A stretch of 64,000 nucleotides of DNA from an uncultured Pseudohongiella sp. (GCA_965227635.1 OZ245763.1:1854896-1918895); one strand, 5' to 3'. Shown: positions 788-37,430, counted from the stretch's first letter. Numbers and translations: made by a program. The notes: generated from the sequence alone by a model not told the origin.

Positions 788-1807
788 CTATGCCGGGCTC
801 GTGCGGGATTGGGCGGCGAGACGATAGGAACGTGGAGTCTGCCCAGCCCAGCGTTTGAACGCTCTGTTGAAGGAGCTCTGTTCCGAGAAGCCGGTGAGAA
901 AGGCGATGTTGCTAAGGGAATGTTGATTCTGCGTGAGCAACTGCTCCGCAAACTCCCGGCGTGCATCGTCTACCAGTCCTTGATAGGTGAGGCCTTGTTC
1001 GGAAAGCTTTCGTTGCAGGGTGCGACCGCTCATCGCCATCGCGCTGGCAATATCGCTGATGGCAGGGACTCCTTCACTGAGCGCCTTGGTGACCTGTTTC
1101 TTTACCTGTTTGGCCAGCGAATTTTCATCTTCAAATTGGCTAATTTCGGCTTCGAGCTGGGTCTCGAAATAGTGGGTGATTCCAGCATCACCCAGCTTGT
1201 TGGGTGCACGCATGGATTCTTCGGAGAGTAACAGGGCGTCGCGGTCAGCCTTGAAATGCACGGGGCATTCAAAGAAGTCTTCATGAGCTGCGATGTTTTC
1301 CGGCCCAGCGTGTTTAAAAAATATGCCATGCAGTTTTACTGGTTGTGTCGCTATCTCGCGACTAATCGTAAACATGCTGGCGATAGTAGCTTCATTGGAA
1401 AGCCGCAGGCCTAAATCGCGAGGCCCTTCGCGGTGAAGATGCACGAAGGCGCCATTATCCGCTGGTTCCACCGTATAGACCGACACACTGGTCATCACCC
1501 GCCAGTAGCGTTCTGCTCTGGTAAAGGAAGCCCGCAGATTGGATGCGGTTTTCCAGGCCAGGCCAAAGACTCCGTAGTCGTCACTCCGCATGGAATTGCC
1601 GGCGCGCAATGGCAGCGTGTGACCGGATTGTTCAGCTCTGGCGATACTCTCCAGAAACCCATAGTAATCACTGTCGCTGACCATGACTGATGGGTCGACT
1701 GGTGCTTCGGGATCGATTCCAATCGACGCCAGCAGTGCAGAGGTGTCGATGGCGCGCTCCGCGATGTCCGCAACTTTGTGCACGAAGAGTGAAGTGATCT
1801 GTCCCAT
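788..1807 (-). CDS. AraC-family transcriptional regulator
   Basis: 339-aa ORF. It has a C-terminal AraC-type dual HTH (LSNIAFLTGFSEQSSFNRAFKRWAGQTPRSYR) and an N-terminal effector-binding-type domain. Confidence 0.85.
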   Translation of the reverse strand: MGQITSLFVHKVADIAERAIDTSALLASIGIDPEAPVDPSVMVSDSDYYGFLESIARAEQSGHTLPLRAGNSMRSDDYGVFGLAWKTASNLRASFTRAERYWRVMTSVSVYTVEPADNGAFVHLHREGPRDLGLRLSNEATIASMFTISREIATQPVKLHGIFFKHAGPENIAAHEDFFECPVHFKADRDALLLSEESMRAPNKLGDAGITHYFETQLEAEISQFEDENSLAKQVKKQVTKALSEGVPAISDIASAMAMSGRTLQRKLSEQGLTYQGLVDDARREFAEQLLTQNQHSLSNIAFLTGFSEQSSFNRAFKRWAGQTPRSYRLAAQSRTSPA

Positions 1808-1941: not shown

Positions 1942-2871
1942 CTATTGCCCGGTTTTGAGGAGTAAGCCCGACTGCAGCGCATTCTGCAAAAACTCCAGCA
2001 CAGCGACTTCCGGTGCAGTCGGTAGTGCGTAGGTCTGCTGCAGCAGGGAAATAATTTCCGGCACCGAATTATTGCCAGTACAAAGCTCCAGGATTACGAC
2101 CGCTGTCGGGTTTAGGCGCTGCTCTTCGGTAAGGCTGGGGCCGGTCACATAGAAGTAATCATCTTCTTCCTTCATCTCCAGGCCGGGTGACTTGCGTGGA
2201 AATTCGGGCAAGGGCTGGGCCGATCCGGCTGCACTACTTCTGAGGAACTCAAACTCATCATCCGGATGATAGCGTGGATACCACGCATAATTTTCATCGG
2301 GCTCCATCCAGTTTTCACCATAGAAGCAGGTGAGTACCTGGGAATAACCCTGTGGCACCCAGAATTCTTCCCCGTGAAACCCATGGCGAATCAGTGGCAA
2401 GACAGAGTCCGCCTGCAATTCACCCTTGATATCCGGGTAGTGGAAGTAGCGATTATCCCGCTGCCAGGTCGTCCATAGATCGAGGTTGAAAGCGGTGTGG
2501 CGTGCGGTTTCACCGGTATCCTCTCGAGAGAGTAACCTGACGTGAATCTGCCCCTTGGAATTCCGCGTTACGTTGAAATTATGTTCTTTCAGTACAGCAA
2601 CGATGTACTCGTGCTCTTCCAGGATTTCATAGTCCAGATATTTTTGCGACAGGTAGGCGATATCGACATCGGTGTCGAACGCGATGAAGTCATTCTGACG
2701 GATTGCCCCGAGCAGCGTGCCCCAGGTCAGGTAGAGTTGCAGGTCAAACTCTCGAGCAAACAGGTCCTCGAGGGTTTTCATGGACTGCACCAACAGGTCT
2801 AGCTGTGACTTGTCATAGTCAGTGAAGCTGGCGTGACCAGCAGTGAGATCCTTGTCTGCAGAGCTGGTCAT
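1942..2871 (-). CDS. LicD-family phosphotransferase fused to a C-terminal PqqD-like (RRE-type) domain
   Basis: LicD signature YLTWGTLLGAIRQNDFIAFDTDVDIAY (DxD) in the N-terminal two thirds. The last ~70 aa (RLNPTAVVILELCTGNNSVPEIISLLQQTYALP...VLEFLQNALQSGLL) match the PqqD peptide-chaperone pattern. Confidence 0.75.
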   Translation of the reverse strand: MTSSADKDLTAGHASFTDYDKSQLDLLVQSMKTLEDLFAREFDLQLYLTWGTLLGAIRQNDFIAFDTDVDIAYLSQKYLDYEILEEHEYIVAVLKEHNFNVTRNSKGQIHVRLLSREDTGETARHTAFNLDLWTTWQRDNRYFHYPDIKGELQADSVLPLIRHGFHGEEFWVPQGYSQVLTCFYGENWMEPDENYAWYPRYHPDDEFEFLRSSAAGSAQPLPEFPRKSPGLEMKEEDDYFYVTGPSLTEEQRLNPTAVVILELCTGNNSVPEIISLLQQTYALPTAPEVAVLEFLQNALQSGLLLKTGQ

Positions 2872-2922
2872 TTCGCGGAAGGATAGGCGGGTCTGATGGC
2901 AAGTCAGGGGTCGGGAAAAACG

Positions 2923-3240
2923 TCAGGACTGCTTGTTCTTCCTGCGTCTGGCCTCCAGGGCCATTGATGCCAGACCCAATCCAAGTAGTGTGACAACAGC
3001 CGGTTCGGGTACGGATGCTGCAGAGGATTGTTCGCTTGCGGACCCGCTTGAAGATTGGGAGCCTTGACTTTGAGATTGGGCGTGTACTTTGCGCGCCGTT
3101 ATCGTCTCTACTCCAAGCGCGAGAGGGACAGCAAACGCTGAGGCCTTGATAGTCCTGGCGACAAATTCTCTGCGTGAAGTATCAACTGAAGACTCAATAG
3201 TCTTGGCTTTGTCTGGTGTTACGTCGAGTTTCTTCTGCAT
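2923..3240 (-). CDS. Small Tat-signal / Ser-rich / PEP-CTERM protein
   Basis: SRREFV twin-arginine motif plus a hydrophobic stretch. Then a low-complexity linker SQSQGSQSSSGSASEQSSAAS, then VPEP + TM + RRRKNK (PEP-CTERM sorting signal). I prefer the start at 3240 (MQKKL); the track start 3288 is possible. Confidence 0.7.
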   Translation of the reverse strand: MQKKLDVTPDKAKTIESSVDTSRREFVARTIKASAFAVPLALGVETITARKVHAQSQSQGSQSSSGSASEQSSAASVPEPAVVTLLGLGLASMALEARRRKNKQS

Positions 3241-3463
3241 CGGACATCTCTCGTGATAGGCGGAAAGGTCAATCCAAATTTGCTGCAATATATGTACCGC
3301 TGCAATGGGGATGATAGTTTTTTCATTAATTTCAGCGGGTTAGCAGTTACAACGAGATTCTGATTTTCTGGCGTATGGCCAATCTGTAATTTTTTCTGAC
3401 AAATCGTCTGCTTACTCAGATAATCGTGTAAAGTTTTTCAACGCAACTCAAGGCGCTCAAATT

Positions 3464-3847
3464 ATGCCGCAGCAGAAAAGAATTATGGTAGATATGTCGG
3501 TCAGTCTGCTGCATCACGGCCATGTCAGGATCCTCAAAGCTGCCAGCGAATTGGGTAAAGTCATTGTTGCGCTGACCACTGACGAAGAGCTGAAGAAAAA
3601 GAAAGGCTATGTTCCCGAGCTGGACTACGCTGCCCGAAAAGAAATTCTGGAAGCCATTCGCTATGTCGACGAAGTCGTGCCTTCGAATTGGCTAATCGAT
3701 GACGACTTTCTTGCGCGTCATGGCATCGATCTGCTGGTACACGGGAGTGACAACAGCAACCCTGTGGCCAAGGACAAGTTGGTCATCTTGCCGCGAACGG
3801 AAGGTATTAGTAGCGAGGATATTCGCCGGGCAATTCGCAATAGCTAG
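3464..3847 (+). CDS. Cytidylyltransferase, TagD-like (glycerol-3-phosphate or phospho-alcohol cytidylyltransferase)
   Basis: 127 aa. It carries the HxGH motif (LLHHGHVRIL), RYVDEVVP and LPRTEGISSEDI blocks typical of the TagD/CCT cytidylyltransferase family. Confidence 0.8.
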   Translation: MPQQKRIMVDMSVSLLHHGHVRILKAASELGKVIVALTTDEELKKKKGYVPELDYAARKEILEAIRYVDEVVPSNWLIDDDFLARHGIDLLVHGSDNSNPVAKDKLVILPRTEGISSEDIRRAIRNS

Positions 3848-5151
3848 ATGGCTTGAGCGACAGGTGAATCAGCGCCCGTCTGCTCCACGTCGAGCTGCCT
3901 GTGGAAGTAGGCCATGGCGACGAGCGTGAGTGCCAGCCCGAGACTGCCGATCACATAGCTTCCATGCAGGGTAAAGCTTACCCAGGATAACTCCGGTTGA
4001 AATGCAGACTTGTAGAGCAAGATCGAAACGGTGCCCAGGTATCCAAACGAGTCTGCCAGATAGATTAGAAAGCCAGCGTTGCCAAGGCTCCGGGTTGCTG
4101 CAATCAGGCGCTCGAACAGAATGCAGTTAAATGGCACATAGCTCATGTACAGGCCAACGGTAATTGCGACAAACCAGAACACGCCCTCGATATAACCCCG
4201 GTCAAAAAGCCAGGTGCCCAGCAAAACCGTAATGAATCCAACGCCAATGATCAGGTGATTCACCATCAAGGCAGTCGCGTTGTTTCGAATTTTCATCAGG
4301 CTGCCGAGCAGGAGGAGTATCAGCAAGGTAACCGGAATACTGGTGAGTAGAAAAATTTCCGGCGTGTCTCCATAGCCGAGCGCAGTCCAGATTTCAGCGG
4401 CGAAATTGTCCGAGAAATCTCGCAGTGCGGTGAGCAACATATAGCTGATAATAAGGACGGATAGTCCGACGCTATAGTCCCTGAAAAATTGCCAGCGTGC
4501 GGTCCCGTCTAGCGGAATGCGGGCCTGTCGTAGGGCGATGTCTTCCGTAGAAGGAGCAGGTAGCGTTCCCAGCAGGTAGATGCCGGCAAGAAACGGCGGC
4601 AGGAATAGCCCGCCAGTGACGAAAGGCATCCACATTTCGCCAACACCAGTATTGATCAACAGCCAACTTCCTACTGTTTTCACAAGACCTGAGCCAAGCA
4701 CGAAGGTTACGCACAGGATCGCGCCCGCTGCCTCGGTGATTTTCCTGCCTTCCAAAAAACTGAACACTAGCCCCCAAACCATTCCCAGCGGTAAGCCATT
4801 GGCGAATAGCGCCATAAACTTTAATTGTGCAGGTAACAGTGGCAGGCAGCCCAGTGCAAACCAGGCGAGCAGAATCAGGCCTATCAGAGTCAGTTTGCGC
4901 TTCTCAGGCTGCATTTCTGACACAACTTTAATGCCAATGAATTTAGACAGCGCGTAACCGGCAACCTGGGCTATAAGCAGCGTGGTTTTGAAATCCAGTC
5001 CTGAAACGGGACTCATGACCCCTTCGAATGTGGCAACAGTGAAGGGTCTGCGAAATGCATACATGCTGACATAAGTGATGAATGCAGACAGTCCTGCCAG
5101 CAGGATCAGGCGCATTGTGTCAGACGAAGCAGTAGCAGTGGGCCTATTCAT
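3844..5151 (-). CDS. Polytopic membrane protein, MFS-like (DUF5690-like)
   Basis: 435 aa with about 12 hydrophobic segments and a YAFRRPF motif near the N-terminus. The family assignment is from memory only. Confidence 0.6.
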   Translation of the reverse strand: MNRPTATASSDTMRLILLAGLSAFITYVSMYAFRRPFTVATFEGVMSPVSGLDFKTTLLIAQVAGYALSKFIGIKVVSEMQPEKRKLTLIGLILLAWFALGCLPLLPAQLKFMALFANGLPLGMVWGLVFSFLEGRKITEAAGAILCVTFVLGSGLVKTVGSWLLINTGVGEMWMPFVTGGLFLPPFLAGIYLLGTLPAPSTEDIALRQARIPLDGTARWQFFRDYSVGLSVLIISYMLLTALRDFSDNFAAEIWTALGYGDTPEIFLLTSIPVTLLILLLLGSLMKIRNNATALMVNHLIIGVGFITVLLGTWLFDRGYIEGVFWFVAITVGLYMSYVPFNCILFERLIAATRSLGNAGFLIYLADSFGYLGTVSILLYKSAFQPELSWVSFTLHGSYVIGSLGLALTLVAMAYFHRQLDVEQTGADSPVAQAI

Positions 5152-5533: not shown

Positions 5534-6295
5534 TTAACTGTTTTTGCGCCGCGAATTCGTGAGGCCCAGTCCGATCAAACCAATTGCCAGCAGGATCAGA
5601 ATCGTGGGCTCTGGAACACTGGTGCTTACTGCGATCGTAAAAGTGTCAAGCTCATAATCCAAGACGGAGTTAAGCCCAGCGCCTCGAGATCTGATGGCGA
5701 AATGGCCTACGCCAAAATCGTTCGCAGAATCACCGGCAGTCCAGCTAAAAACCTGGTCCAAATCCAGTGAAGCGATAATATTGTCCAGATAAGAATAGAG
5801 ATGGAGCTGACTGTAGGCTTCGTCGCCTCCACCGAGGTCTATTTTGTCTTCAATGAAGTAGCTATCGAGCCCGCCTAGCCCATCTCCGGCGCCGTACTCA
5901 TTCTGGATGAGTATTTCATCCGGTGTTGCGCTGGCTACCGGGAAAATATCATCAGGCGTCAGGCTGAGAGTCACTCCACCCTTGCTCACCACCGTCGTTG
6001 AAGAAACCCATTTAATTCCTGGCAGGTGTCGCAGGCTGGCGGGGTGAGAATCGAGATCTGCGCCGCTGTCGTCCGTGTCGAATGTGAATTCGGTGACAAT
6101 CGATGCGCCTGTCATGGTATTGGCGCCAGTGCCCAATCCGAAATAGTTGGTGCTGTCATCACTTGAATAAACAGTACCGGTAGCCGAGATCGTAATTGGC
6201 GTGGCATTTGCCACGGCGGGGAACAGGATCAAGCAGGCTGCGGAAAAAACGGCAGCTTTACAACGTGTAAGCCATGGATTGGAACTTTTGTTCAA
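5534..6295 (-). CDS. PEP-CTERM sorting-domain secreted protein
   Basis: N-terminal signal peptide. The C-terminus is VPEPTILILLAIGLIGLGLTNSRRKNS. Confidence 0.8.
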   Translation of the reverse strand: MNKSSNPWLTRCKAAVFSAACLILFPAVANATPITISATGTVYSSDDSTNYFGLGTGANTMTGASIVTEFTFDTDDSGADLDSHPASLRHLPGIKWVSSTTVVSKGGVTLSLTPDDIFPVASATPDEILIQNEYGAGDGLGGLDSYFIEDKIDLGGGDEAYSQLHLYSYLDNIIASLDLDQVFSWTAGDSANDFGVGHFAIRSRGAGLNSVLDYELDTFTIAVSTSVPEPTILILLAIGLIGLGLTNSRRKNS

Positions 6296-6343
6296 GGAGT
6301 TGTCTCCAGCACTAACAAGGGGCTTATTCCCCCTATAAATTAC

Positions 6344-6358
6344 GCAATTTTCACGCCA
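6344..6358 (-). promoter_or_regulatory. Candidate sigma-54 (-24/-12) promoter for the PEP-CTERM gene 5534-6295
   Basis: The reverse strand reads TGGCGTG-AAAA-TTGCG. The GG and GC spacing matches TGGCACG-N4-TTGCW. The -12 element lies about 50 nt upstream of the ATG. Confidence 0.45.
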
Positions 6359-6612
6359 ATAGTTATTTTTCTATAAATCAATGACTTAGCCTATGGGGTC
6401 TGGACGAATTGTAAAGAAGGCTGACAAATTCGCAGATTGGATGACTAAAGTATTTACACTGTTAATACCTGGAAGCCTGTTTCGGGTCTGGATTGAATCA
6501 CCGGGGACGTGGAATCCGTTTGAATCCGGCTGCATCGGACAGACAGGTGCGCTACCGGAAGTTTGGCTCACCCGCTGTCATTGCCAGAGTCGAGAAACTT
6601 TCGGTTAGCCAC

Positions 6613-6640
6613 AAAAAAGCCCCGCATTGCGGGGCTTTTT
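6613..6640. terminator. Bidirectional rho-independent terminator
   Basis: AAAAAA-GCCCCGC-ATT-GCGGGGC-TTTTT. This is a 7-bp GC stem flanked by A and T runs, just downstream of the stop of 6663-7319. Confidence 0.8.
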
Positions 6641-6662
6641 AGAAGAACAGATTGAGGTGATA

Positions 6663-7319
6663 TCAGGCGATTCGCTTGCGTCTGCTGCGCAGGGCCAGAC
6701 CAGTCAGTCCGAATCCAAGAAGCATCAGAATTGATGGTTCCGGCACGGATACATTCACTTCCTGTGCTTCGAAAGCGAACAGGCGAGCCTCAAGTTCGTT
6801 GAAGATAAATCCCTGGCCAAAGCCTCCCGCTGCAATAACGGTCTGAGTGGAGTTCAGTACTGGTGCACCCCATGTCAGGCTGGAAAAGGCTGCCTGTACT
6901 TCTGACAGAAGCGGGCTGTAGCTGGCATTTTCTACCGGATTGTTGCTGAAGTAAGTTGAGGGGTACCCCGACAGGAAACCTGAGAGATCTGAACTCATGA
7001 GCACTGAAACTGAAGAGTCAGTCATGTTCACGCCATTGACGATTCCGCTGATGTTCTCTTCGTCACCACCGCCGCCCATACCAAGGACATAAAAAGTGTT
7101 GTCACCTGCGGCAAGATTGAATGAAAGCTGGGATACAGCATCGACCTGGTCATACCAATTCGCAGTGTTTTGGTAGAGGAGGTTGTTGATGCTGGTGGAA
7201 GTTCCACTAAAAATCGCGAAATCGTTGTCCGCCACCATTTCGATGCTGAAGGGCGAAGCAGAAACTGATCCGGCTGTAAAAACACTGAACAGTAACGCTG
7301 TGAGAGAGATCTTTTTCAT
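6663..7319 (-). CDS. PEP-CTERM sorting-domain secreted protein
   Basis: Signal peptide MKKISLTALLFSVFTAGSVSA. C-terminal VPEPSILMLLGFGLTGLALRSRRKRIA. Confidence 0.85.
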   Translation of the reverse strand: MKKISLTALLFSVFTAGSVSASPFSIEMVADNDFAIFSGTSTSINNLLYQNTANWYDQVDAVSQLSFNLAAGDNTFYVLGMGGGGDEENISGIVNGVNMTDSSVSVLMSSDLSGFLSGYPSTYFSNNPVENASYSPLLSEVQAAFSSLTWGAPVLNSTQTVIAAGGFGQGFIFNELEARLFAFEAQEVNVSVPEPSILMLLGFGLTGLALRSRRKRIA

Positions 7320-7999
7320 GTTTGCTCCTGAAAAACCCCGGTTAACTACTTGATTTTGGGATCAATTCGGGCCGATAAACGAAACCCGACGACGATGACG
7401 AATGAGCAATCTGTGTGCCAATAATTTCAGTTAATGTAACACGTTGATATTGTTGAAAATATTGAATTTGGCGAGACCCACAGAGATGCCGGAGTTGTAA
7501 ATTTTTTTGACACTCGGCAGGAAAAATCGACTAATTCCTCAAACCCGTTGCACATTTTCATGGCGAGACAACAAGAAAGCTTTATCGAAGATGGACAGCT
7601 AACACGGAGAGACACGCGCGTGCGGGAAGCGGATTCTGCAGGTGAAAACCTCGCCCCAAACCAGCATTTGGTGGCTTGGCAGGATCTGCCATTTGCCGTC
7701 TGCATAATTCTTAGGTGCAGAAACCTCCTGTAAACCACACCGTATTGTAAGCTTTCTTGACGCCTATTCAGGGCAATCTGTCCATTTGGTTAACAAAATG
7801 GCCCTTTCAGGAAATCTGCGGCCCCGTAAATCATTGAAAATACGGCATTTCTAATTTCGGTGTAATTCTTGCGTCCAAATCGAGAACCGATGTGTTCATC
7901 GGTCCCGCAATGGCAGGGCGTTGCCAGGCGGTAATAAAAGTAAAACAAATGAATAGAAGTCCGTATCGCAGAGCGCCGCTCTGATGGAGAACAAACTCA

Positions 8000-8908
8000 A
8001 TGTCTGCCTTCTTGAAATCAATTCGTCTGGGTGTAGCCGCTCTTATACTCAGTGTGTATGCAGTTAGTGCCAATGCCGGGTCGATTCTTTTCGCCCATGT
8101 GGCCGATTACAGCCCTTATGTAAATGATGGCAACGCCATCGCGGGTTACCTGAGTAACGCCGGTCACACTGTGACCACCCGTTATCTCAATCAGGCAGTC
8201 TGGAATGACTACGACAGCTTTGATCAGGTATTCGTTTACGACTTGTCTCACCTAGCCGACCTAAGCAGCAATCAAGTCGCTAACTACAACAACATAGGCA
8301 ACTGGTACAACGGGCTCGATAACAAGAACCTGATTCTCGATGGTCGAATTATTTCTTCTGCTCCCAGCTGGACACCCAGTTCAATGCCCAGCGAAGAAGC
8401 GTGGATACAAAACTATGCGACTCAGTTGCAGTTGCGTGGCGGCGGCCTGGTACTGGGCACAGACCACAACGCTTATCACAGCGGCATCAACACGATTAAT
8501 AATGTTATCAACGTGAATCCTTTTTATGGATACATTAATCAGTATCCCTATCAGGCATTCGTTGACCCCAACTCGCCTCTGGCCATCCCGGGTCTTGCTA
8601 CCTGCCTCACTGATCCATCACAGATCTGCATTAACGACAACTCGTCTACCGGCATCGTGGCGACCAACCTGCAACCAAACGGGCAGCTTCTCACGCCAGT
8701 TGCCTATCACGGAACGGGCACCAGCCAGGCCTGGGATCAGGCTGCAGTCTCAACGACTATGGGCAGCATCACTTTCGGCACCTGTGGCGGAGCCGGTCAG
8801 CCTGCATGCTCAGTTCCTGAGCCATCTTCGCCTATTTTGTTCGGTCTTGGTTTGTTGATGCTTGGCTTGCAGAAGCGACGGGGTTGGAAATCTAGAGCGA
8901 CAAATTGA
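8000..8908 (+). CDS. PEP-CTERM sorting-domain secreted protein
   Basis: Signal peptide. C-terminal VPEPSSPILFGLGLLMLGLQKRRGW. Confidence 0.8.
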   Translation: MSAFLKSIRLGVAALILSVYAVSANAGSILFAHVADYSPYVNDGNAIAGYLSNAGHTVTTRYLNQAVWNDYDSFDQVFVYDLSHLADLSSNQVANYNNIGNWYNGLDNKNLILDGRIISSAPSWTPSSMPSEEAWIQNYATQLQLRGGGLVLGTDHNAYHSGINTINNVINVNPFYGYINQYPYQAFVDPNSPLAIPGLATCLTDPSQICINDNSSTGIVATNLQPNGQLLTPVAYHGTGTSQAWDQAAVSTTMGSITFGTCGGAGQPACSVPEPSSPILFGLGLLMLGLQKRRGWKSRATN

Positions 8909-10201: not shown

Positions 10202-11962
10202 ATGCAGTTCAAAAATTGGCGTGAGCAATGGCTAAATAGGCCATCGCAAGCTGTAGTAAAGTCGAGGCGCCGTTTCGTTCAGGGTCTGAGTGCGGGGGGA
10301 GCCCTGAGTACCATGTCGCTTGGGGGTGGTGCGTTTGGTCAGCCGAATGTGACGCGCGTTGCCAATGCGCCGGTGTTGAGCGGAACGACTTTTGACCTCA
10401 CCATAGATCAGTTGCCTGTCAATTTTACTGGTGCGCCGAGAATGGCAGCAGCCATCAATGGTTCGATCCCGGGGCCAACCTTGCGTTGGAAAGAGGGCGA
10501 AACGGTAACCATCAATGTGACCAATCGCCTCGCGGAAACAACCTCCTTGCACTGGCATGGCATGATCCTGCCTTATGGCATGGATGGTGTACCGGGGCTT
10601 AGTTTCCCAGGTATCAGGCCCGGGGAAACTTTTCAGTACCGCTTCAAAGTGCAACAGAGCGGTACCTACTGGTATCACTCCCACTCCGGTTTTCAGGAAA
10701 TGAAAGGCATGTACGGCGCGATCGTTATTGATCCCGCCGCCGAGGACCGCATTCAGTCAGATCGTGATCATGTCATCCTGCTATCGGAGTGGACTGATGA
10801 GGACCCGCATCATGTCTTCCAGAAACTCAAGACCATGGGCCACCTGTACAACTTCAACCAGCCTACATTGCCAGGCTTTTTGGATGATGTTGCAAGAGAC
10901 GGGTTGCAAGCTGCGATGAGCCGGCGTGACATGTTCAATGTCATGCGCATGAAGCCCACGGACCTTGCTGATCTTTCTGCAGAAACGTTGACCTACCTGA
11001 TGAACGGCATTACGCCTAGTGGCAATGATACCAAGTTGTTTAATGTGGGTGAGCGAGTGCGACTGCGATTCATCAATGGTGCAGGCAATACCTTCTTCGA
11101 TCTGCGCATTCCTGACCTGCCTATGACGGTAGTGCAAGTGGACGGTATCAATTTAGAGCCTGTCACCGTAGACGAGTTTCGTATGGGGCCCGGAGAAACG
11201 GTGGATGTCCTGGTGCGGCCCACCGAGGATGCCTATTCAATCTTTGCAGAAACCATGGAACGTACGGGCTTTGCGCTCGGCACCCTTGCAACACGCCCCG
11301 GACTGAAGGCTACTGTGCCGTCAAGGCGCCAGGCGCAGTGGCTGTCCATGACGGACATGATGGGGGCAATGCCCCATGACGATCCCGCTATGGGTGGTAT
11401 GAATCATGGCGATGATCATATGGCGATGGGAGACAGCATGGTGGCAGTGCGTCATGCCAGCTCTGAATTTGGTCCCAGCACGGATATGCGTGTGGATTCA
11501 CCCAGAATCAACCTCGATGACCCTGGCGTTGGCTTGCGAGAAACCTCGCGCCGCGTACTGACGCTTGCAGACCTGCATTCGCTGGATGGCGAATTTGACA
11601 GCCGTGACCCAGAAAGAGAGATCGAGTTGCACCTCACCGGCAATATGGAGCGCTATAGCTGGTCCATAGACGGGCTGGAATATGGCAAATCCACCCCGGT
11701 GCATTTTCGCCAATATGAGAAGGTGCGCGTGCATCTGCACAACGACACCATGATGACCCATCCGATGCATCTACACGGTATGTGGAGTGATCTCGAAGAT
11801 GCCTACGGAAATTTCCTGGCGCGCCGTCACACGATTCCTGTGCAGCCAGCGCAGCGAGTCAGTTTTAGCGCGACCGCTGACGCCGTGGGAAGGTGGGCCT
11901 GGCATTGCCATCTGTTGTTTCATATGGACGCGGGCATGTTCAGGGAGGTGATTGTCACATGA
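10202..11962 (+). CDS. copA: Multicopper oxidase CopA (copper resistance protein A)
   Basis: Tat signal SRRRFVQGL. Copper-site blocks HWHGM, YWYHSHS, HPMHLHG and WAWHCHLLFHMDAGM. Met/His-rich insert. Confidence 0.9.
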   Translation: MQFKNWREQWLNRPSQAVVKSRRRFVQGLSAGGALSTMSLGGGAFGQPNVTRVANAPVLSGTTFDLTIDQLPVNFTGAPRMAAAINGSIPGPTLRWKEGETVTINVTNRLAETTSLHWHGMILPYGMDGVPGLSFPGIRPGETFQYRFKVQQSGTYWYHSHSGFQEMKGMYGAIVIDPAAEDRIQSDRDHVILLSEWTDEDPHHVFQKLKTMGHLYNFNQPTLPGFLDDVARDGLQAAMSRRDMFNVMRMKPTDLADLSAETLTYLMNGITPSGNDTKLFNVGERVRLRFINGAGNTFFDLRIPDLPMTVVQVDGINLEPVTVDEFRMGPGETVDVLVRPTEDAYSIFAETMERTGFALGTLATRPGLKATVPSRRQAQWLSMTDMMGAMPHDDPAMGGMNHGDDHMAMGDSMVAVRHASSEFGPSTDMRVDSPRINLDDPGVGLRETSRRVLTLADLHSLDGEFDSRDPEREIELHLTGNMERYSWSIDGLEYGKSTPVHFRQYEKVRVHLHNDTMMTHPMHLHGMWSDLEDAYGNFLARRHTIPVQPAQRVSFSATADAVGRWAWHCHLLFHMDAGMFREVIVT

Positions 11963-12924
11963 TGATCAGCAGAGATTCTTGTAGAACGAAAGTTCTACTA
12001 TTCGCAGGCATTTTTTTCGCGGTGGTGTTGAATCAGGCAATTGCGCAGGATCATACGGGGCATACCGGTGCTGTACAGCAAGAAGCTGTCGAGCACGGCG
12101 CACACCATGACATACAAGTCCCAGCCGTACATGCCCATGGCAGCGACCAAACTATGCAGATGCAATCAATGGATGGGCGCATGAGCGAAAATCAGGGAGT
12201 GGGCAGTTTGCGTGATCCTCATGCCTACTCGGGCGGGTACATCCGTGGGGAGGGGCCGTATTCGCTACCAGTTTCGGAGCAACGTCAGTTGGCTGACGAG
12301 ACTGTTTTTGCTGGTCTATGGATAGACCGTCTGGAGACTCGTCAGGGCAGGGCGGAGGACTTCCAGGAATTCCAGGGTGAGGCCTGGATGGGAAATAGCT
12401 ATCGTCGGCTGTTGCTTCGAACGGAACTGGAAGGGAGAACGCAAACTATCGAGGAATCCAAGACCGAGTTGCTGTACCAGCGTGCATTGACTCCGTTTTG
12501 GGATCTTGAGATTGGCGCCCGTTGCGACCACGGTGACCTTGAGCACCGTGAATGGTTCGCACTCGGGGTTTCCGGCATGGCACCCTACTGGGTCGAGATT
12601 AGTGCTACTGCCTTTGCCAGCCCGGAGGGACACTCGGCCGCTACGATTGAAGCAGAATATGATCTGTATTTGACCCAGCGCTTTATCCTGCAGCCCAGAG
12701 CCGAGTTGGACTTCTACGGCGACTCCGACCTCGAGGCAGGGCACGGCAAAGGGCTTTCCAAGAGCTTGCTGGGTTTACGCCTGCGCTATGACTTCGATCG
12801 GCAGTTCTCACCCTACGTGGGCTACGAGCGAGTGCATCGTCATGGTGAAACGACCCGTGCGTTTGAGCCTTTCGGGCAGCATCGTGAGGGCCAGTGGATT
12901 GCGGGGTTTCGTTTCTGGTTCTAG
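11959..12924 (+). CDS. copB: Copper resistance protein B (outer membrane)
   Basis: The ATG overlaps the copA stop (ATGA). Signal peptide MMISRDSCRTKVLLFAGIFFAVVLNQAIA. Ends in ...GFRFWF. The track start 11893 lies inside copA and is unlikely. Confidence 0.85.
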   Translation: MMISRDSCRTKVLLFAGIFFAVVLNQAIAQDHTGHTGAVQQEAVEHGAHHDIQVPAVHAHGSDQTMQMQSMDGRMSENQGVGSLRDPHAYSGGYIRGEGPYSLPVSEQRQLADETVFAGLWIDRLETRQGRAEDFQEFQGEAWMGNSYRRLLLRTELEGRTQTIEESKTELLYQRALTPFWDLEIGARCDHGDLEHREWFALGVSGMAPYWVEISATAFASPEGHSAATIEAEYDLYLTQRFILQPRAELDFYGDSDLEAGHGKGLSKSLLGLRLRYDFDRQFSPYVGYERVHRHGETTRAFEPFGQHREGQWIAGFRFWF

Positions 12925-28468: not shown

Positions 28469-31400
28469 ATGGACCTTTTTCGAAGGCTAATGATGCGCAT
28501 AACAATACCAAAGCATGAATACAGTAGGTCGTATGTTGGCGGGAACAAGTTATCTAGGCTAGCTAACCCTGAGCTAGAATTGGACGTAGAGATAAATGAA
28601 AGCCAGCGGAATGGTATATACGAAATACGAACAAGTTTGCCTCCCCCTTTAAATACAATATATCTCTTGAAGCCTAACTCGCGATCTGATGTGCCAGACA
28701 ATGCTTGCAGTTTAAAGTTTGTCATACCTTGCCCCATCAATGAAATCACGCCAGACACAAAACTGAAATGGCATACATATTCGGTTGAAAAGGCGCTACT
28801 TGATCCTAGAGAAATCACTGAATCATGGAAAGACAAGTTTAGATTTGTAGAAGAAAATCTTGAGGAACGAAAGGTAGGGCTAAGGCTGCCACAGATCGGC
28901 GCTCTGCATGCAATTTCTGCATATTTTTCATTAACAAGAAACACTGAGCCAGCGACAATTGTGCTTCCAACAGGAACGGGAAAGACTGAAACAATGCTTT
29001 CAACCGCGGTTTCTGGGCAATGTCAGAAAATACTGGTGCTTGTACCGTCAGATGCGCTAAGAGCTCAAATATCTGAAAAATTCTTGAACCTGGGGTATTT
29101 AAGAGAGTTAGGGGTTATTAGTTTTGATACAGTGAATCCTCACGTTGCGGTTCTTAAGAAAGGTCTTAAGTCTGATGAAGAAGCGTCGGATATAGTCGAG
29201 GGGTCAAATATAATAGTAGCTACAGCTTCCATACTCGCTGCTAGTCAACAGTCCTCTGTCAAACTGATTTGCGAAGCTGCATCACACCTCTTTGTAGATG
29301 AAGCGCATCACATTTCCGCTAATACTTGGTCGTCAATTCGTGAGCTGTTTGAAGGGAAGAAAATATTACAATTTACAGCTACACCATTTCGGAATGACAC
29401 CAAATCACTTGGCGGGAAAATTATCTACAACTACTCAATGGGAGAGGCTCAGGAGGCTGGGTACTTCAAACATATTAATTTGCTTCCAGTAGAAGAATAC
29501 TACGAAAATGAGAAAAACAGAACCATAGCAACTAAGGCAATTGCACAATTAAGAGAAGACCTAAACAATGGATTGGATCATATTGTCCTTGCGCGAGTGA
29601 CTTCAAGAACAAGTGCAAATAACGTAGTAGAGATATATGAACAAATCGCGCCTGAGCATAATCCAATATGCGTGCATTCTGGCAAATTAAAGTCAGAAAA
29701 CTCCGAGAATTTAGAAAGGCTACTATCAAGAGAATCACGAGTTATTGTTTGTGTGGATATGCTTGGTGAAGGTTATGACTTACCGAATCTAAAAATTGCA
29801 GCGATACATGACCATCACAAAAGCCTAGCTGTAACTTTACAATTTATAGGGAGGTTTACCCGCACAGCTGAAAACATTGGGAACGCATCTGTAGTTGTAA
29901 ACATAGCTGAACCTGAGGTGGAGAAAGATTTAGAAAAGCTTTATTCGCAAGGAGCAGACTGGGATGTGGTATTAAGGCGTCTTGCAGAAGACCGCATATC
30001 TCGAGAAGTAAAATTGCAGGAGGTGGTAGACAATCTAAAAGGTAAAGGCAATTTGCATACAGAATTGTCGCTTTGGAATTTAAAGCCGGGGTACTCGGCA
30101 ATGCTATTTCGAGCAACTTGCGAGGAATGGAATCCAGAGAATTTCAAAAATTCACTACCGCGTTGTGAGGAGTATTGGTACTCAATTGCAGATGACGAGA
30201 AGATTTTAGTCATTCTCACTTTACAGAATCTGAAGGTTAAGTGGGGCGACTACGAAGAGCTGAGTGACATAGTATACAAGCTGCTAATTGCCCATTGGGA
30301 TAGTGATAGAAATTCTCTCTACATTTACTCGAACGACTATAAAGCCTTTAGAACTGAACGTTTGGCGCTTGATCTCTGTGGTGAAGAGTGCGAGCTGATG
30401 AGCGGTAACCAAATCTTCAATGTCTTCAACGGCATGGAGTTCCCACTTATCAGAAACCTAGGAGCTTCAAAAGAAGGCGCAATTAGTTTTACTCAGTATT
30501 TTGGTCCAAATGTTACCGATGGTTTGTCGCAGATTGAAGCCTCGCAATCAAAGTTGAGCAATTGTGCAGGTATGGGGTATATCGAAGGGGACCGAGTAAT
30601 CTGGGGGTGCTCAGAAAAGAAAGGGAAAGTTTGGTCCGTCCAAAGTGGTGCCATATCAGATTGGATTGCTTGGGCAAATTCAGCGTGGGACAAAGTCATC
30701 GGTGGCGGGATAGATGAAGAAAATATCACTCGAAACTTTCTCAGGCCGACAAAAATTAATTCAGCCTACGGTGAACATCCAATTACGGTATTGTGGGGGG
30801 AGCATACTGCTTCAGCTCCCGAAGACAGCATTGTTATCCATTTTGGTGATGTTACCGTTCCAATGTATCTAGTTGATCTAGAATTGGTCGAACAACTAGA
30901 GTCTGGAGCATATAGAATTCGGTTCTTTACCGATGACATTGAAGCCACCTATGAATTTCTAATTTCAGATCAAGTGGCTCAAGGGTTCAGGTACACACTC
31001 ATTCAAGGGCCTGAAATATCCATACAGAAAGGGCGAGGAGACCTAAAACCGCTACCTGAATATATGGTCACTGATCCGCTGATTATCAATTATATAGATG
31101 GTTCATTTTCATACAATTGTTACTTGATTAGGGTAACTCAGGAAGTCGGGCGATATGATGCTAACAACATCGAAGTTATTGATTGGGATGGCATCGATAT
31201 TCGCAAAGAATCGATGGGGAAAAATATTGCCCAAGATAGTATTCAGTATAAGTCTTTTGATGAGCTACAGAGTGATTTTGATGTTGTTATAAATGACGAC
31301 AATGCTGGTGAAGCAGCAGATTTAGTTTGTGTTAAGGATTTAGGCGAAGAAATAAATTTGGCGCTTGTTCATTGTAAGTACTCCTCCCGAAATGAAGCGG

Positions 31401-31738: not shown

Positions 31739-31780
31739 CAGCTCTAATACATTTCTTGTGTTTGCGCTAAATTGAACACC

Positions 31781-36927: not shown

Positions 36928-36951
36928 ACTTTCTCCTGCTTAACTATTCGC

Positions 36952-36982: not shown

Positions 36983-37030
36983 GGCCCTCAGCGTGTGAAA
37001 TTGCAAGGTATATCCGTGTTCGTAACTGGC

Positions 37031-37402: not shown

Positions 37403-37430
37403 CGACGTTTTGACTTGGAGATTCGCAGGT

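What the first reader, a model, noticed from the sequence alone, without database searches (positions are those of the whole stretch)
1942..3847. LicD phosphotransferase fused to a PqqD/RRE-like domain, next to a Ser-rich Tat/PEP-CTERM mini-protein and a TagD-like cytidylyltransferase
The fusion: the LicD-family enzyme (1942-2871) ends in a ~70-aa PqqD-like segment. In RiPP pathways that fold is the peptide-recognition element.

The neighbours:
- Directly upstream on the same strand (2923-3240) is a ~105-aa protein. It is little more than a Tat signal, a Ser/Gln-rich linker (SQSQGSQSSSGSASEQSSAAS) and a PEP-CTERM anchor.
- Divergently transcribed is a TagD-like cytidylyltransferase, which would make a CDP-activated alcohol. 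LicD-family enzymes use that donor type.
- An MFS-like membrane protein follows.

Hypothesis: this is a dedicated system that decorates the Ser-rich linker of a PEP-CTERM substrate with phospho-alcohol groups (glycerol-phosphate, phosphocholine or similar). Substrate recognition would go through the RRE-like domain. I do not know of a described LicD-RRE fusion.
Basis: inference. Interest (0 to 1): 0.65.

Follow-up and report, generated by a model that had tools for sequence, protein, structure and literature searches.

The report
Peptide-guided phosphonate tagging of surface mini-protein
A rare, strictly conserved gene pair in uncultured marine Gammaproteobacteria joins a LicD-type head-group transferase carrying a peptide-recognition domain to a tiny serine-rich, surface-sorted protein; neighbouring genes suggest it attaches 2-aminoethylphosphonate to that protein, which would be the first defined route to a bacterial phosphonate-tagged protein.

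Summary
ORF 1942-2871(-) is a LicD catalytic domain fused to a PqqD/RRE domain: both score above Pfam cut-offs, and the AlphaFold model matches FKRP, PqqD and leader-bound TbiB1. The 105-aa gene upstream (2923-3240) belongs to a discrete family: a twin-arginine leader with an invariant FxxP, a hypervariable Ser/Gly/Ala/Gln core, and a PEP-CTERM tail. It precedes the fusion in all 12 lineages found (fusion identity 47-98%). That two-gene pair is the only invariant unit.

The cytidylyltransferase is adjacent in 6 of 11 lineages where the flanks can be read. DUF5690 (a true MFS fold) is adjacent in one.

The donor needs revising. The window's cytidylyltransferase fails the TagD cut-off. It is 53-61% identical to domains fused to PhnW/AepZ 2-aminoethylphosphonate (AEP) aminotransferases. 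In one lineage the cassette sits beside PEP mutase, phosphonopyruvate decarboxylase and that fusion.

Best reading: the RRE docks on the leader, and the LicD domain moves AEP from CMP-AEP onto core Ser/Thr before export and exosortase sorting.

All chemistry is inferred. No phosphonate synthesis gene lies in the window. No paper found describes this fusion. This is a new variant of known kinds; interest is about 0.7.

The parts
1942..2871 (-). LicD-RRE fusion enzyme (309 aa). No signal peptide or transmembrane segment is apparent in its sequence, so it is presumed cytoplasmic.
   Evidence: PF04991 and PF05402 both score above their gathering cut-offs. About 35 homologous clusters share the same architecture. 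AF2 model pLDDT 86.4.
2236..2826 (-). LicD / nucleotidyltransferase-fold catalytic domain (about aa 16-212), with invariant D66-x-D68-x-D70, H110, D131 and H144-Y-P-D147.
   Evidence: Invariant columns in the 29-sequence alignment A2. The profile aligns DtDVD to the FKRP DYDVD segment. Best fold matches are FKRP with Mg, CMP or CDP-ribitol bound.
1957..2199 (-). C-terminal PqqD-type RiPP recognition element (about aa 225-305): three strands followed by three helices.
   Evidence: PF05402 31.9 bits. DSSP gives E232-236, E239-243, E251-253, H255-263, H270-280, H288-301. Foldseek matches PqqD 5SXY (target TM 0.68) and TbiB1 bound to its leader peptide 5V1V (target TM 0.74).
2923..3240 (-). Small precursor or acceptor protein (105 aa), 51 nt upstream of the fusion gene and in the same frame.
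   Evidence: Discrete family of 21 clusters at >=86 bits, then a gap to generic PEP-CTERM hits at <=41 bits. Directly upstream of the fusion in all loci.
3079..3240 (-). Leader, Tat-like signal (aa 1-54): S-R-R-E-F-V, invariant F-A-V-P, a basic residue in the c-region, and V-H-A before the predicted signal-peptidase site.
   Evidence: Family consensus RReFV.r....saFAVP.Alg..ti..R.a.A, with exactly 32 residues from RR to the cleavage-site Ala in every member parsed (24 distinct signal sequences). 22 of 22 members have [RK]RxF...FxxP. Leader identity of 56-78% is within about 8 points of, and in most pairs above, the partner enzyme's 47-72%.
3013..3078 (-). Hypervariable Ser/Gln-rich core (aa 55-76, QSQSQGSQSSSGSASEQSSAAS), the proposed acceptor segment.
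   Evidence: Pooled composition of the cores recovered across the family: S 29%, G 21%, A 16%, Q 11%, T 8%, with about 0% K/R; lengths 14-62 aa. The core is rewritten with indels between strains whose enzymes are 98% identical.
2923..3012 (-). PEP-CTERM sorting signal (VPEP, hydrophobic helix, RRRK) plus the stop codon.
   Evidence: PF07589 22.9 bits against a cut-off of 20.7; TIGR02595 17.8 bits against a cut-off of 16.
3241..3463 (.). Divergent intergenic region between the small gene and the cytidylyltransferase. It contains one sigma-70-like site on the + strand (3396-3424).
   Evidence: This is a consensus match only, and the number of sites found is no higher than in shuffled sequence.
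3464..3847 (+). Cytidylyltransferase (127 aa) of an AEP-associated subfamily; proposed CMP-AEP synthase.
   Evidence: PF01467 E 2.7e-14; TagD model 75 bits against a cut-off of 165. It is 59-61% identical to the cytidylyltransferase domains fused to PhnW/AepZ aminotransferases, and only 28-30% identical to a Ppm-fused and a phage-associated cytidylyltransferase. 14 of 23 multidomain close relatives carry a PhnW/AepZ domain.
3844..5151 (-). DUF5690 MFS-fold membrane protein (435 aa), convergent with the cytidylyltransferase and overlapping it by 4 nt. Possibly an importer of the head-group precursor; it is an accessory found only in this lineage.
   Evidence: PF18943 E 7e-150. AF2 pLDDT 89.9 with an MFS fold. 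Its only PDB sequence matches are SLC37A4 glucose-6-phosphate exchangers, E 0.007-0.02. Beside the cassette it is found only in the window and L020.
788..1807 (-). AraC-family regulator downstream of the fusion gene on the same strand; possibly a local regulator, seen only in this lineage.
   Evidence: Arabinose_bd plus HTH_18. Present only in the 97-98% relatives L020 and L024.
5534..8908 (.). Three further PEP-CTERM surface proteins (5534-6295 -, 6663-7319 -, 8000-8908 +) with Sec-type signals. They show that the organism uses exosortase sorting.
   Evidence: PF07589 above cut-off for all three. Other PEP-CTERM proteins also flank the cassette in L021 and L011.

Best explanation
A two-gene cassette makes a post-translationally decorated surface peptide.

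The small gene encodes three parts:
- a leader that doubles as a twin-arginine-type export signal;
- a short, fast-evolving Ser/Thr/Gly/Gln core;
- a PEP-CTERM sorting tail.

Proposed steps (all inferred):
1. In the cytoplasm, the RRE domain of the LicD-RRE enzyme docks on the conserved leader, probably on the invariant FxxP segment.
2. The LicD domain then moves a phosphoryl-type head group from a cytidine-nucleotide donor onto hydroxyls of the core, probably several times, releasing CMP.
3. In the window's clade the donor is made by the divergently transcribed cytidylyltransferase. It is most likely CMP-2-aminoethylphosphonate, so the product would be an O-phosphonylated (AEP-decorated) peptide.
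4. The decorated precursor is exported after translation, probably by Tat. Signal peptidase then cuts after the conserved AxA-type site, and exosortase processes the PEP-CTERM tail. This would leave a decorated peptide of about 25-60 aa at the cell surface.

Shown: the domain identities, the obligate gene pairing, the conserved-leader and variable-core pattern, and the link between this cytidylyltransferase subfamily and AEP-pathway genes.

Inferred: binding of the RRE to the leader, Ser/Thr as the acceptor, the identity of the head group, the export route and the final location.

The source of AEP in the window's organism is unknown. It could be a pepM locus elsewhere in the genome, or uptake, possibly through DUF5690.
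For: 1. Both domains are real: they score above Pfam cut-offs and are confirmed at fold level against FKRP, PqqD and leader-bound TbiB1. Catalytic-type residues are invariant across 29 homologues.
2. The pairing is strict. The small gene lies 28-78 nt upstream on the same strand in every locus. Searches started from the small protein lead back to the fusion. Other neighbours differ between lineages.
3. The small family has a RiPP-like anatomy. The leader is about as conserved as the enzyme, or more so. The spacing from RR to the cleavage site is a fixed 32 residues. An invariant FxxP sits inside the hydrophobic segment. The core is hypervariable, 37% Ser+Thr, and has almost no basic residues. 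Cha et al. 2026 describe a YxxP leader motif as often used for RRE engagement (PMC13622209).
4. The donor:
   - In the Thioalkalispiraceae lineage (L012/L019/L025) the cassette is divergent to three genes. These are a cytidylyltransferase-PEP mutase fusion (TIGR02320, 410 bits against a cut-off of 320, with the EDKxxxxxNS motif), a cytidylyltransferase-PhnW/AepZ-like fusion, and a gene whose best hit is phosphonopyruvate decarboxylase.
   - The window's cytidylyltransferase is 59-61% identical to PhnW-fused cytidylyltransferase domains.
   - 14 of its 23 multidomain close relatives carry PhnW/AepZ, and 2 carry a CDP-alcohol phosphatidyltransferase.
5. The framework of a CMP-phosphonate donor plus a LicD-like transferase for cell-surface tailoring is published (Rice 2019, PMC6697681).
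6. A cytoplasmic enzyme acting on an exported acceptor requires export after translation, which fits the SRRxFV motif, the weakly hydrophobic h-region and the basic c-region.
Against: - There is no biochemical evidence of any kind. Co-folding of the RRE with the leader could not be run.
- No PEP mutase, phosphonopyruvate decarboxylase or AEP aminotransferase lies in the 64-kb window, or in any other locus apart from one lineage.
- The cytidylyltransferase is absent from the visible flanks in 5 of 11 lineages. These include a 66% relative with 10 kb of upstream sequence in view.
- Most of the PhnW-like fusion partners are divergent: they fall below curated cut-offs and are 21-25% identical to a canonical PhnW domain.
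- Phosphoethanolamine is nearly the same shape as AEP. The nearest solved relatives of the cytidylyltransferase are TagD and ethanolamine-phosphate cytidylyltransferase.
- Characterised LicD-family enzymes act on glycans or lipids, not on peptides (family knowledge).
- No Tat-signal profile model matched the small protein.
- No exosortase or Tat gene lies in the window.
- Support from the metatranscriptome is weak, and it does not cover the small gene.
Confidence: 0.5

Rival explanations
1. Same architecture and logic (RRE-guided LicD transfer onto the Ser-rich core), but the head group is an ordinary phosphate ester, such as phosphoethanolamine, glycerol-phosphate or phosphocholine from a CDP-alcohol. 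This is what the first reader proposed.
For: The cytidylyltransferase's nearest solved relatives are TagD (72 bits) and ethanolamine-phosphate cytidylyltransferase (64 bits), ahead of the Fom1 phosphonate cytidylyltransferase (51 bits). No phosphonate synthesis genes lie in the window. DUF5690's structural neighbours include choline/ethanolamine transporters.
Against: The TagD equivalog cut-off is missed by a wide margin (75 bits against 165). The subfamily is 53-61% identical to domains fused to AEP aminotransferases. One lineage carries the full AEP pathway next to the cassette.
Confidence: 0.2
2. The small protein is not the substrate but a two-helix membrane adaptor. Its N-terminal tail recruits the enzyme to the inner membrane through the RRE, and there the LicD domain modifies a lipid-linked glycan or a lipid, as characterised LicD enzymes do.
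For: Characterised LicD-family enzymes act on glycans or lipids (Rice 2019; the best NCBIfam hit of the catalytic domain is the Mf1 diacylglycerol cholinephosphotransferase). The small protein has two hydrophobic segments. No Tat profile model matched it.
Against: The conserved AxA-type cleavage site at a fixed distance from RR, together with a bona fide PEP-CTERM tail, argues for processing rather than a stable hairpin. A mere periplasmic loop would not be expected to stay Ser/Thr-rich and free of charge while its sequence and length change so fast. No glycosyltransferase or polyprenol-linked machinery is conserved beside the cassette.
Confidence: 0.15
3. The LicD (nucleotidyltransferase-fold) domain uses a donor that needs no dedicated cytidylyltransferase, for example direct nucleotidylylation of Ser/Thr from CTP or another NTP, or a common CDP-linked metabolite. 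The adjacent cytidylyltransferase in some lineages would then be incidental or would serve another pathway.
For: 5 of 11 lineages have no cytidylyltransferase in the visible flanks. The fold also resembles ANT(2'')-Ia and pol-beta-type nucleotidyltransferases. FzmU shows that a nucleotidyltransferase can perform unusual peptide-phosphonate ligation.
Against: The best matches by a wide margin are to FKRP, which uses a CDP-alcohol (E 1e-7 against about 6e-3). The cytidylyltransferase is adjacent in six independent lineages in three different arrangements: divergent, downstream with overlapping stop and start, and fused to pathway enzymes.
Confidence: 0.1
4. The pairing has no mechanistic meaning: the RRE domain is vestigial and the small ORF is an unrelated neighbouring PEP-CTERM gene.
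For: PEP-CTERM genes are numerous in these genomes, with three more within 6 kb.
Against: The small protein is a discrete family with a 45-bit gap to generic PEP-CTERM proteins. Wherever its flank could be read, it lies next to the fusion. Adjacency, strand and short spacing persist down to 47% enzyme identity while all other neighbours change. RRE residues are invariant (R252, N254, L261, E262, C264, G266).
Confidence: 0.05

Closest known systems
Phosphonyl tailoring (Pnt) pathway: Ppm/Ppd/AEP transaminase, a phosphonate cytidylyltransferase and LicD-like phosphotransferases (Rice et al. 2019, PMC6697681)
   Same: A cytidylyl-activated phosphonate donor. PF01467 cytidylyltransferase domains fused to or next to Ppm. 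A LicD-family transferase that directs the phosphonate to the cell surface. The L012/L019 lineage has all of these parts.
   Different: The Pnt pathway is proposed to act on glycans or lipids. Here the LicD enzyme carries an RRE and is tied to a dedicated ribosomal mini-protein rather than to glycosyltransferases. The characterised AEP cytidylyltransferases (PntC) are PF12804 enzymes, not PF01467. Most cassette loci, including the window, lack Ppm nearby.
FzmT (discrete RRE) with FzmU (nucleotidyl transferase) in fosfazinomycin assembly (Cha et al. 2026 preprint, PMC13622209)
   Same: An RRE (PF05402) is paired with a nucleotidyltransferase-fold enzyme that ligates an activated phosphonate onto a ribosomally made peptide. 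It is the only published link between RiPP and phosphonate logic that I found.
   Different: Fzm builds an N-P bond to a C-terminal hydrazide. It uses a pyrophosphoryl-activated phosphonate rather than a CMP conjugate. Its RRE is a separate protein and was dispensable in vitro. The peptide is a disposable scaffold for a small antifungal compound in actinomycetes. Here the RRE is fused, the enzyme is LicD-type, the presumed linkage is O-P on Ser/Thr, and the peptide itself is exported and sorted to the surface.
FKRP / fukutin (LicD-family ribitol-5-phosphate transferases; PDB 6KAK, 6KAM)
   Same: The closest solved fold and sequence relative of the catalytic domain, with an aligned DxDxD metal-site segment. 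It transfers an alcohol-phosphate from a CDP donor and releases CMP.
   Different: FKRP acts on the O-mannosyl glycan of a glycoprotein, not on peptide hydroxyls. It has an N-terminal stem domain and no RRE. Identity is about 21%.
PqqD and lasso-peptide RREs (PqqD 5SXY; TbiB1 bound to the TbiA leader, 5V1V)
   Same: The C-terminal domain has the same winged-helix topology of three strands then three helices, with target TM scores of 0.68-0.74. The partner peptide has a conserved aromatic-x-x-Pro motif like the YxxP of lasso leaders.
   Different: Known RREs serve radical SAM, YcaO, lasso-protease, lanthipeptide and similar enzymes. I found no description of one fused to a LicD enzyme. Here the presumed recognition motif lies inside an export signal.
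PEP-CTERM / exosortase substrates (for example PepA-type floc proteins)
   Same: A C-terminal PEP motif, a hydrophobic helix and a basic cluster, scoring above the model cut-offs. It lies in a genome region rich in PEP-CTERM proteins.
   Different: There is no folded passenger domain: the whole mature part is a low-complexity stretch of 14-62 aa. The signal is twin-arginine-like rather than Sec-like. There is a dedicated cytoplasmic modifying enzyme. No curated NCBIfam PEP-CTERM subfamily model reaches its cut-off.
TagD glycerol-3-phosphate cytidylyltransferase (1COZ)
   Same: The same small PF01467 fold, and the best solved sequence match to the window's cytidylyltransferase (72 bits).
   Different: The enzyme fails the TagD equivalog model (75 bits against a cut-off of 165). 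Its close relatives are fused to AEP aminotransferases rather than found in teichoic-acid loci.

Membership tests
LicD family (PF04991; nucleotidyltransferase-fold phospho-alcohol transferases) | Profile match above the curated cut-off | tested here: met
   41.6 bits against a cut-off of 22.6, in two stretches. Most homologues are also precomputed as PF04991.
LicD family (PF04991; nucleotidyltransferase-fold phospho-alcohol transferases) | Conserved acidic DxD-type metal-binding motif and a catalytic fold like a solved member | tested here: met
   D66, D68 and D70 are invariant and align to the DYDVD segment of FKRP. FKRP entries are the top 13 fold matches, E 1e-7 to 2e-6.
LicD family (PF04991; nucleotidyltransferase-fold phospho-alcohol transferases) | Transfers a phospho-alcohol or phosphonate from a CDP/CMP donor | not testable with these tools
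   This needs an enzyme assay.
PqqD / RiPP recognition element (PF05402) | Profile match above the curated cut-off | tested here: met
   31.9 bits against a cut-off of 23.4, aa 252-304. The PqqD equivalog models (TIGR03859, NF002535) are below their cut-offs, so this is not PqqD itself.
PqqD / RiPP recognition element (PF05402) | Winged-helix topology of three strands followed by three helices, superposable on solved RREs | tested here: met
   DSSP elements at residues 232-301. 5SXY target TM 0.68; 5V1V and 5V1U target TM 0.73-0.74.
PqqD / RiPP recognition element (PF05402) | Binds the leader of a cognate precursor peptide | not testable with these tools
Only indirect support is available: obligate adjacency, a conserved leader and an invariant FxxP.
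RiPP biosynthetic system | A genetically encoded precursor next to the RRE-bearing enzyme, with a conserved leader and a variable core | tested here: met
RiPP biosynthetic system | The leader is removed to release a small mature natural product | tested here: inconclusive
   A conserved AxA-type signal-peptidase site is predicted. However, the product carries a PEP-CTERM sorting tail, so it is more likely a surface-attached peptide than a diffusible compound. No dedicated protease or exporter is conserved.
PEP-CTERM / exosortase substrate | C-terminal PEP-CTERM domain above the cut-off | tested here: met
   PF07589 22.9 bits against 20.7; TIGR02595 17.8 bits against 16.
PEP-CTERM / exosortase substrate | An exosortase is encoded in the same genome | tested here: inconclusive
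   No exosortase was found among the window ORFs scanned. The rest of the genome is not available. Three other PEP-CTERM proteins within 6 kb imply that the system is present.
Tat (twin-arginine) substrate | Consensus S/T-R-R-x-F-L-K-type motif, a weakly hydrophobic h-region and a basic c-region | tested here: met
   SRREFV in the window. RRxF[VIL] is present in all but two members, one with KR and one with a stop codon in place of the first Arg. h-region hydropathy is 1.93 against 2.04-2.57 in neighbouring Sec signals. A conserved Arg lies four residues before the cleavage-site Ala.
Tat (twin-arginine) substrate | Match to curated Tat-signal profile models | tested here: not met
   Neither the Pfam scan nor the NCBIfam scan at E <= 1 reported a Tat-signal model for the small protein. 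Short, weak matches can be lost to HMMER's filters.
Phosphonate (AEP) biosynthesis and Pnt tailoring locus | PEP mutase with the EDKxxxxxNS motif, phosphonopyruvate decarboxylase and AEP aminotransferase next to the transferase | tested here: not met
   None is found in the window. The feature is met only in the L012/L019/L025 lineage.
Phosphonate (AEP) biosynthesis and Pnt tailoring locus | A nucleotidyltransferase of a phosphonate-associated type beside a LicD-like transferase | tested here: met
   The window's cytidylyltransferase is 59-61% identical to PhnW-fused cytidylyltransferase domains. 14 of 23 multidomain relatives carry PhnW/AepZ.
TagD glycerol-3-phosphate cytidylyltransferase (TIGR01518 equivalog) | Score at or above the curated equivalog cut-off | tested here: not met
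   75.1 bits against a cut-off of 165.4.
Major facilitator superfamily (for the DUF5690 gene) | Fold with twelve transmembrane helices, superposable on solved MFS transporters | tested here: met
   AF2 pLDDT 89.9. More than 300 MFS matches at E <= 1e-3, with query TM scores of 0.6-0.69. Pfam places DUF5690 in the MFS clan.

The most novel reading that the evidence does not exclude
The cassette is the first genetically defined machinery for direct phosphonylation of a bacterial protein. An RRE-guided LicD enzyme would put several 2-aminoethylphosphonate groups on Ser/Thr of a ribosomal mini-protein. The RRE would bind a motif (FxxP) buried inside the twin-arginine signal. In that way it would also hold back Tat export until the decoration is finished, much as a Tat proofreading chaperone does. 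The product, a hydrolysis-resistant, zwitterionic and hypervariable phosphonopeptide, would then be fixed to the cell surface by exosortase. This would give a molecular basis for the observation that marine phosphonate is recovered in the protein fraction.
Probability: 0.25. Interest if true: 0.88.

Novelty: new variant of a known kind. Interest (0 to 1): 0.7.

Why it matters
Phosphonates make up a large share of marine dissolved organic phosphorus. Acker et al. 2022 (PMC8931226) recovered Prochlorococcus phosphonate in the insoluble protein fraction, but no acceptor protein or transferase has been identified.

If the best explanation holds, this cassette offers a compact, testable system of two to three genes, with a defined acceptor, a defined transferase and a probable donor enzyme. 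It would have four consequences:
- LicD-family chemistry would extend from glycans and lipids to peptides.
- A new enzyme class would join those that use RiPP recognition elements.
- It would be a second, mechanistically different link between RiPP and phosphonate logic, after the 2026 fosfazinomycin work.
- It would assign a function to a subset of PEP-CTERM proteins that have no passenger domain.

The hypervariable core between near-identical strains also suggests diversifying selection at the cell surface from phage, grazers or hosts, in bacteria found on algae, corals, molluscs and biofilms.

If the head group turns out to be an ordinary phosphate ester, an RRE-guided LicD enzyme acting on a peptide would still be new.

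Tried and rejected
- **Co-folding the RRE with the small protein.** The two genes are in frame, 51 nt apart. 
- **DUF5690 as a conserved part of the system: rejected.** It is adjacent only in the window and its 98% relative, while the family itself has more than 4,400 clusters. One context look-up failed. The two that worked showed an HD-domain neighbour and a phosphorus-scavenging-like neighbourhood, which is suggestive only. The fold search confirms an MFS fold but does not separate choline/ethanolamine from organophosphate transporters.
- **PhyH, FMO, GST and other neighbours in the clade without a cytidylyltransferase: rejected as partners.** They are shared only within one closely related lineage whose flanking proteins are 87-97% identical.
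- **Search for pepM, ppd and phnW in the window and all loci by tblastn.** Found only in L012/L019/L025.
- **ABC importer at 46609-50427.** Its best hits are AEP ABC-transporter models, but far below their cut-offs, and it lies beside a TonB-dependent receptor. It is not used as evidence.
- **Metatranscriptome X17.** It gives only low-depth contigs from a relative, none over the small gene, and DNA carry-over is possible. It is not used as proof of expression.
- **Promoter and terminator scan.** Counts are not above those in shuffled sequence.
- **Nearest RRE-less LicD relative (P0038).** It lies in a phage-like contig with its own cytidylyltransferase and a GT2. That cytidylyltransferase is only 24-30% identical to the cassette-associated and PhnW-fused ones compared, so it says nothing about the donor here.
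- **Tat-signal profile models.** No hit.
- **Literature.** No paper holds both LicD and PqqD. The single paper with LicD and 'RiPP recognition element' is an unrelated Lactococcus genome report. Papers with both PEP-CTERM and phosphonate mention them only incidentally.

Full report
**1. What is in the sequence**

- ORF 1942-2871(-) encodes 309 aa.
  - It matches LicD (PF04991, 41.6 bits, cut-off 22.6) and PqqD (PF05402, 31.9 bits, cut-off 23.4, aa 252-304).
  - An AlphaFold2 model built on 29 homologues is confident (pLDDT 86.4, pTM 0.81).
  - Its N-terminal domain best matches FKRP, the LicD-family transferase that uses CDP-ribitol (E 1e-7, about 175-180 aligned columns).
  - Its C-terminal domain has three strands then three helices. 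It matches PqqD (5SXY, target TM 0.68) and the lasso-peptide RRE TbiB1, solved with its leader peptide (5V1V, target TM 0.74).
  - A profile search of PDB sequences gives the same two answers.
  - D66-x-D68-x-D70, H110, D131 and H144-Y-P-D147 are invariant across the family. The DxDxD segment aligns to DYDVD in FKRP. The enzyme therefore looks active.
- ORF 2923-3240(-) encodes 105 aa with a PEP-CTERM tail above cut-off.
- ORF 3464-3847(+) is a 127-aa PF01467 cytidylyltransferase.
- ORF 3844-5151(-) is DUF5690 (E 7e-150). Pfam places this family in the MFS clan, and it models as an MFS fold.

**2. The conserved unit is a two-gene pair**

The fusion forms a small family: about 35 clusters among 5.8 billion, 45-98% identical, nearly all carrying both domains. 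It is rare:
- 9 loci in one-genome-per-species GTDB, all uncultured Gammaproteobacteria MAGs. Some are labelled SAR86 cluster, Azotimanducaceae or Thioalkalispiraceae, and the rest are unclassified.
- 6 loci in the JGI metagenome collection.

In every locus a gene of roughly 95-145 aa lies 28-78 nt upstream on the same strand.

Searching with a profile of the small proteins gives 21 clusters at 86 bits or more, and then nothing until generic PEP-CTERM proteins at 41 bits or less. Two members whose contig sizes matched no listed fusion hit were looked up, and a fusion gene followed each: a complete one in L019 and one cut off by the contig end in L018.

All other neighbours change between lineages. 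The PhyH, FMO and GST genes seen in some loci are shared only within one closely related group.

**3. Anatomy of the small protein**

Every member has three parts.

- **Leader.**
  - The consensus is RReFV.r....saFAVP.Alg..ti..R.a.A.
  - The distance from the twin arginines to the Ala of an AxA-type cleavage site is exactly 32 residues in every member parsed.
  - F-x-x-P is present in 22 of 22 members.
- **Core.**
  - It is 14-62 aa long. Pooled composition is S 29%, G 21%, A 16%, Q 11% and T 8%, with almost no Lys or Arg.
- **PEP-CTERM tail.**

The leader is 56-78% identical to the window's, against 47-72% for the partner enzymes in the same pairs. In contrast, the core has been rewritten with indels between two strains whose enzymes are 98% identical. 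A conserved leader with a variable core is the pattern of RiPP precursors. An aromatic-x-x-Pro leader motif is described as commonly used for RRE engagement (PMC13622209).

The leader also reads as a twin-arginine signal:
- the SRRxFV motif;
- an h-region less hydrophobic than the neighbours' Sec signals;
- a basic residue before the cleavage site.

No Tat profile model matched, however, so 'Tat-like' is a reading of motifs only.

A cytoplasmic enzyme with an exported acceptor makes export after translation the logical route.

**4. The donor**

The cytidylyltransferase is adjacent in 6 of 11 lineages where the flanks can be read, in three arrangements:
- divergent: window/L020, L021, L007-9 and L010;
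- directly downstream with overlapping stop and start: L011;
- fused to pathway enzymes: L012/L019/L025.

This rests.

In the last lineage the cassette faces three genes:
- a cytidylyltransferase-PEP mutase fusion (TIGR02320, 410 bits against a cut-off of 320) with the Ppm-specific EDKxxxxxNS motif;
- a cytidylyltransferase fused to a PhnW/AepZ-like aminotransferase;
- a gene whose best hit is phosphonopyruvate decarboxylase.

Together these are the canonical route to 2-aminoethylphosphonate.

The window's stand-alone enzyme is 59% identical to the domain fused to the PhnW-like protein. It is only 28% identical to the Ppm-fused domain.

An exhaustive phmmer search of 1.84 billion representatives shows that many of its closest relatives (46-63% identity) are proteins of 430-490 aa. 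Of 23 multidomain relatives:
- 14 match PhnW/AepZ models. The best is 61-62% identical in the cytidylyltransferase domain and scores 397 bits against a cut-off of 361.
- 2 carry a CDP-alcohol phosphatidyltransferase.

The enzyme fails the TagD equivalog cut-off (75 bits against 165), although TagD and ethanolamine-phosphate cytidylyltransferase are its nearest solved relatives.

Rice et al. 2019 established that nucleotidyl activation dominates phosphonate tailoring. They also reported that PF01467 domains are fused to 23.6% of Ppm enzymes, and that LicD-like transferases sit in AEP neighbourhoods.

I therefore take CMP-AEP as the most likely donor in the window's clade. Caveats:
- No phosphonate synthesis gene lies in the window.
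- Most PhnW-like fusion partners are divergent.
- Phosphoethanolamine is nearly the same shape as AEP.
- Five lineages show no local cytidylyltransferase.

**5. Accessory genes**

- DUF5690 is an MFS-fold protein. Its only sequence matches among solved structures are SLC37A4 glucose-6-phosphate/phosphate exchangers (E 0.007-0.02). It could import the head-group precursor. However, it accompanies the cassette only in this lineage, and its family is very large. Its role is speculative.
- The AraC regulator is likewise specific to this lineage.
- Other PEP-CTERM proteins recur near the cassette.
- Sequencing runs that hold the locus come from algae, coral, mollusc, biofilm, biofloc and seawater samples.

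**6. Mechanism and rivals**

Best explanation (confidence about 0.5):
1. The RRE docks on the leader.
2. The LicD domain moves AEP from CMP-AEP onto core Ser/Thr in the cytoplasm.
3. The decorated precursor is exported (Tat-like), cut by signal peptidase and processed by exosortase.
4. This leaves a short phosphonylated peptide at the surface.

Rivals:
- The same logic with a phosphate-ester head group (0.2).
- The small protein is a membrane adaptor for a LicD enzyme that acts on glycans or lipids (0.15).
- A donor that does not depend on the cytidylyltransferase, including direct nucleotidylylation (0.1).
- A meaningless association (0.05).

**7. Comparison with what is known, and novelty**

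Each part is known: LicD transferases, RREs, PEP-CTERM sorting and CMP-phosphonate donors. I found no description of a LicD-RRE fusion or of this small-protein family. No curated NCBIfam PEP-CTERM subfamily model reaches its cut-off for the small protein.

The nearest precedent in logic is the September 2026 preprint on fosfazinomycin. There an RRE and nucleotidyltransferase gene pair ligates an activated phosphonate to a ribosomal peptide. That work differs in the bond formed, the activation chemistry, the enzyme family and the biological role.

Acker et al. 2022 found phosphonate in the protein fraction of Prochlorococcus without identifying an acceptor or a transferase. This cassette is a concrete candidate for such a system in another marine lineage.

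I rate it a new variant of known kinds with interest 0.7.

Noticed in passing
L011:3609-4034 (Azotimanducaceae MAG JBLHWY010000232.1): The small-protein gene has an in-frame stop codon exactly where the first Arg of the twin-arginine pair should be (…DEG*REF…). The downstream fusion and cytidylyltransferase genes look intact. This could be a sequencing error, a recent pseudogene or recoding.
   Followed up: no
window 3013-3078, versus L020 and run X5 (insertions at 3041-3066): The Ser-rich core differs by clustered indels and substitutions (22 aa against 28 aa) between two strains whose enzyme, cytidylyltransferase, DUF5690 and AraC proteins are 95-98% identical. This suggests slippage or diversifying selection on the surface-exposed part.
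   Followed up: partly
window 46609-52683: An ABC importer (binding protein, fused two-domain permease and ATPase) has its best NCBIfam hits to the 2-aminoethylphosphonate ABC transporter models PhnS, PhnU2 and PhnT2. All are far below their cut-offs (81 against 310, 75 against 593, 295 against 458 bits). It lies next to a TonB-dependent receptor, so the substrate cannot be assigned; Fe3+ is equally plausible.
   Followed up: partly
window 28469-33256: A large ResIII/DEAD helicase-like protein (1089 aa) is followed by a LA2681-like HEPN protein (494 aa). This looks like an anti-phage defence pair.
   Followed up: no
window 10202-12924, 36016-46492, 53569-63861: The window is dense in metal-resistance genes: two multicopper-oxidase sets (CopA/CopB-like at 10202-12924; a second oxidase at 60944-62710 with an unannotated ORF after it), two RND efflux sets (one with a CusF-fused adaptor), two CDF transporters, a MerP/CopZ-like protein and a thioredoxin-like protein. 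This suggests a metal-resistance island.
   Followed up: no
L022:6234-8299 and L023:3564-11069: Elsewhere, DUF5690 genes sit next to an HD-domain protein (Thalassomonas). In a Fulvivirgaceae genome the neighbourhood holds a phosphodiesterase/sulfatase-type enzyme, an FAD oxidase, PHP, HAD and GDPD proteins and a PhoB-type regulator. This hints that DUF5690 transports an organophosphorus compound.
   Followed up: partly
L030:4051-5701 and L031:2777-4427: The nearest RRE-less relative of the catalytic domain (187 aa, 32% identity) lies in a phage-like contig (YopX, many small ORFs). It is followed by its own small cytidylyltransferase and a GT2 glycosyltransferase, which may be a phage-borne surface-glycan modification module.
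   Followed up: no
L011:1129-3469: Two ice-binding-like proteins, at least one with a PEP-CTERM tail, lie directly upstream of the cassette on the same strand in the Azotimanducaceae MAG. They may be co-transcribed with it.
   Followed up: no
window 3844-3847: The cytidylyltransferase (+) and DUF5690 (-) genes converge, and their 3' ends overlap by 4 nt.
   Followed up: no
L018:8457-8868: After the small gene in this MAG contig, the next ORF matches the fusion for only its first ~50 residues and then diverges up to the contig end. This may be an assembly chimera or a frameshift.
   Followed up: no
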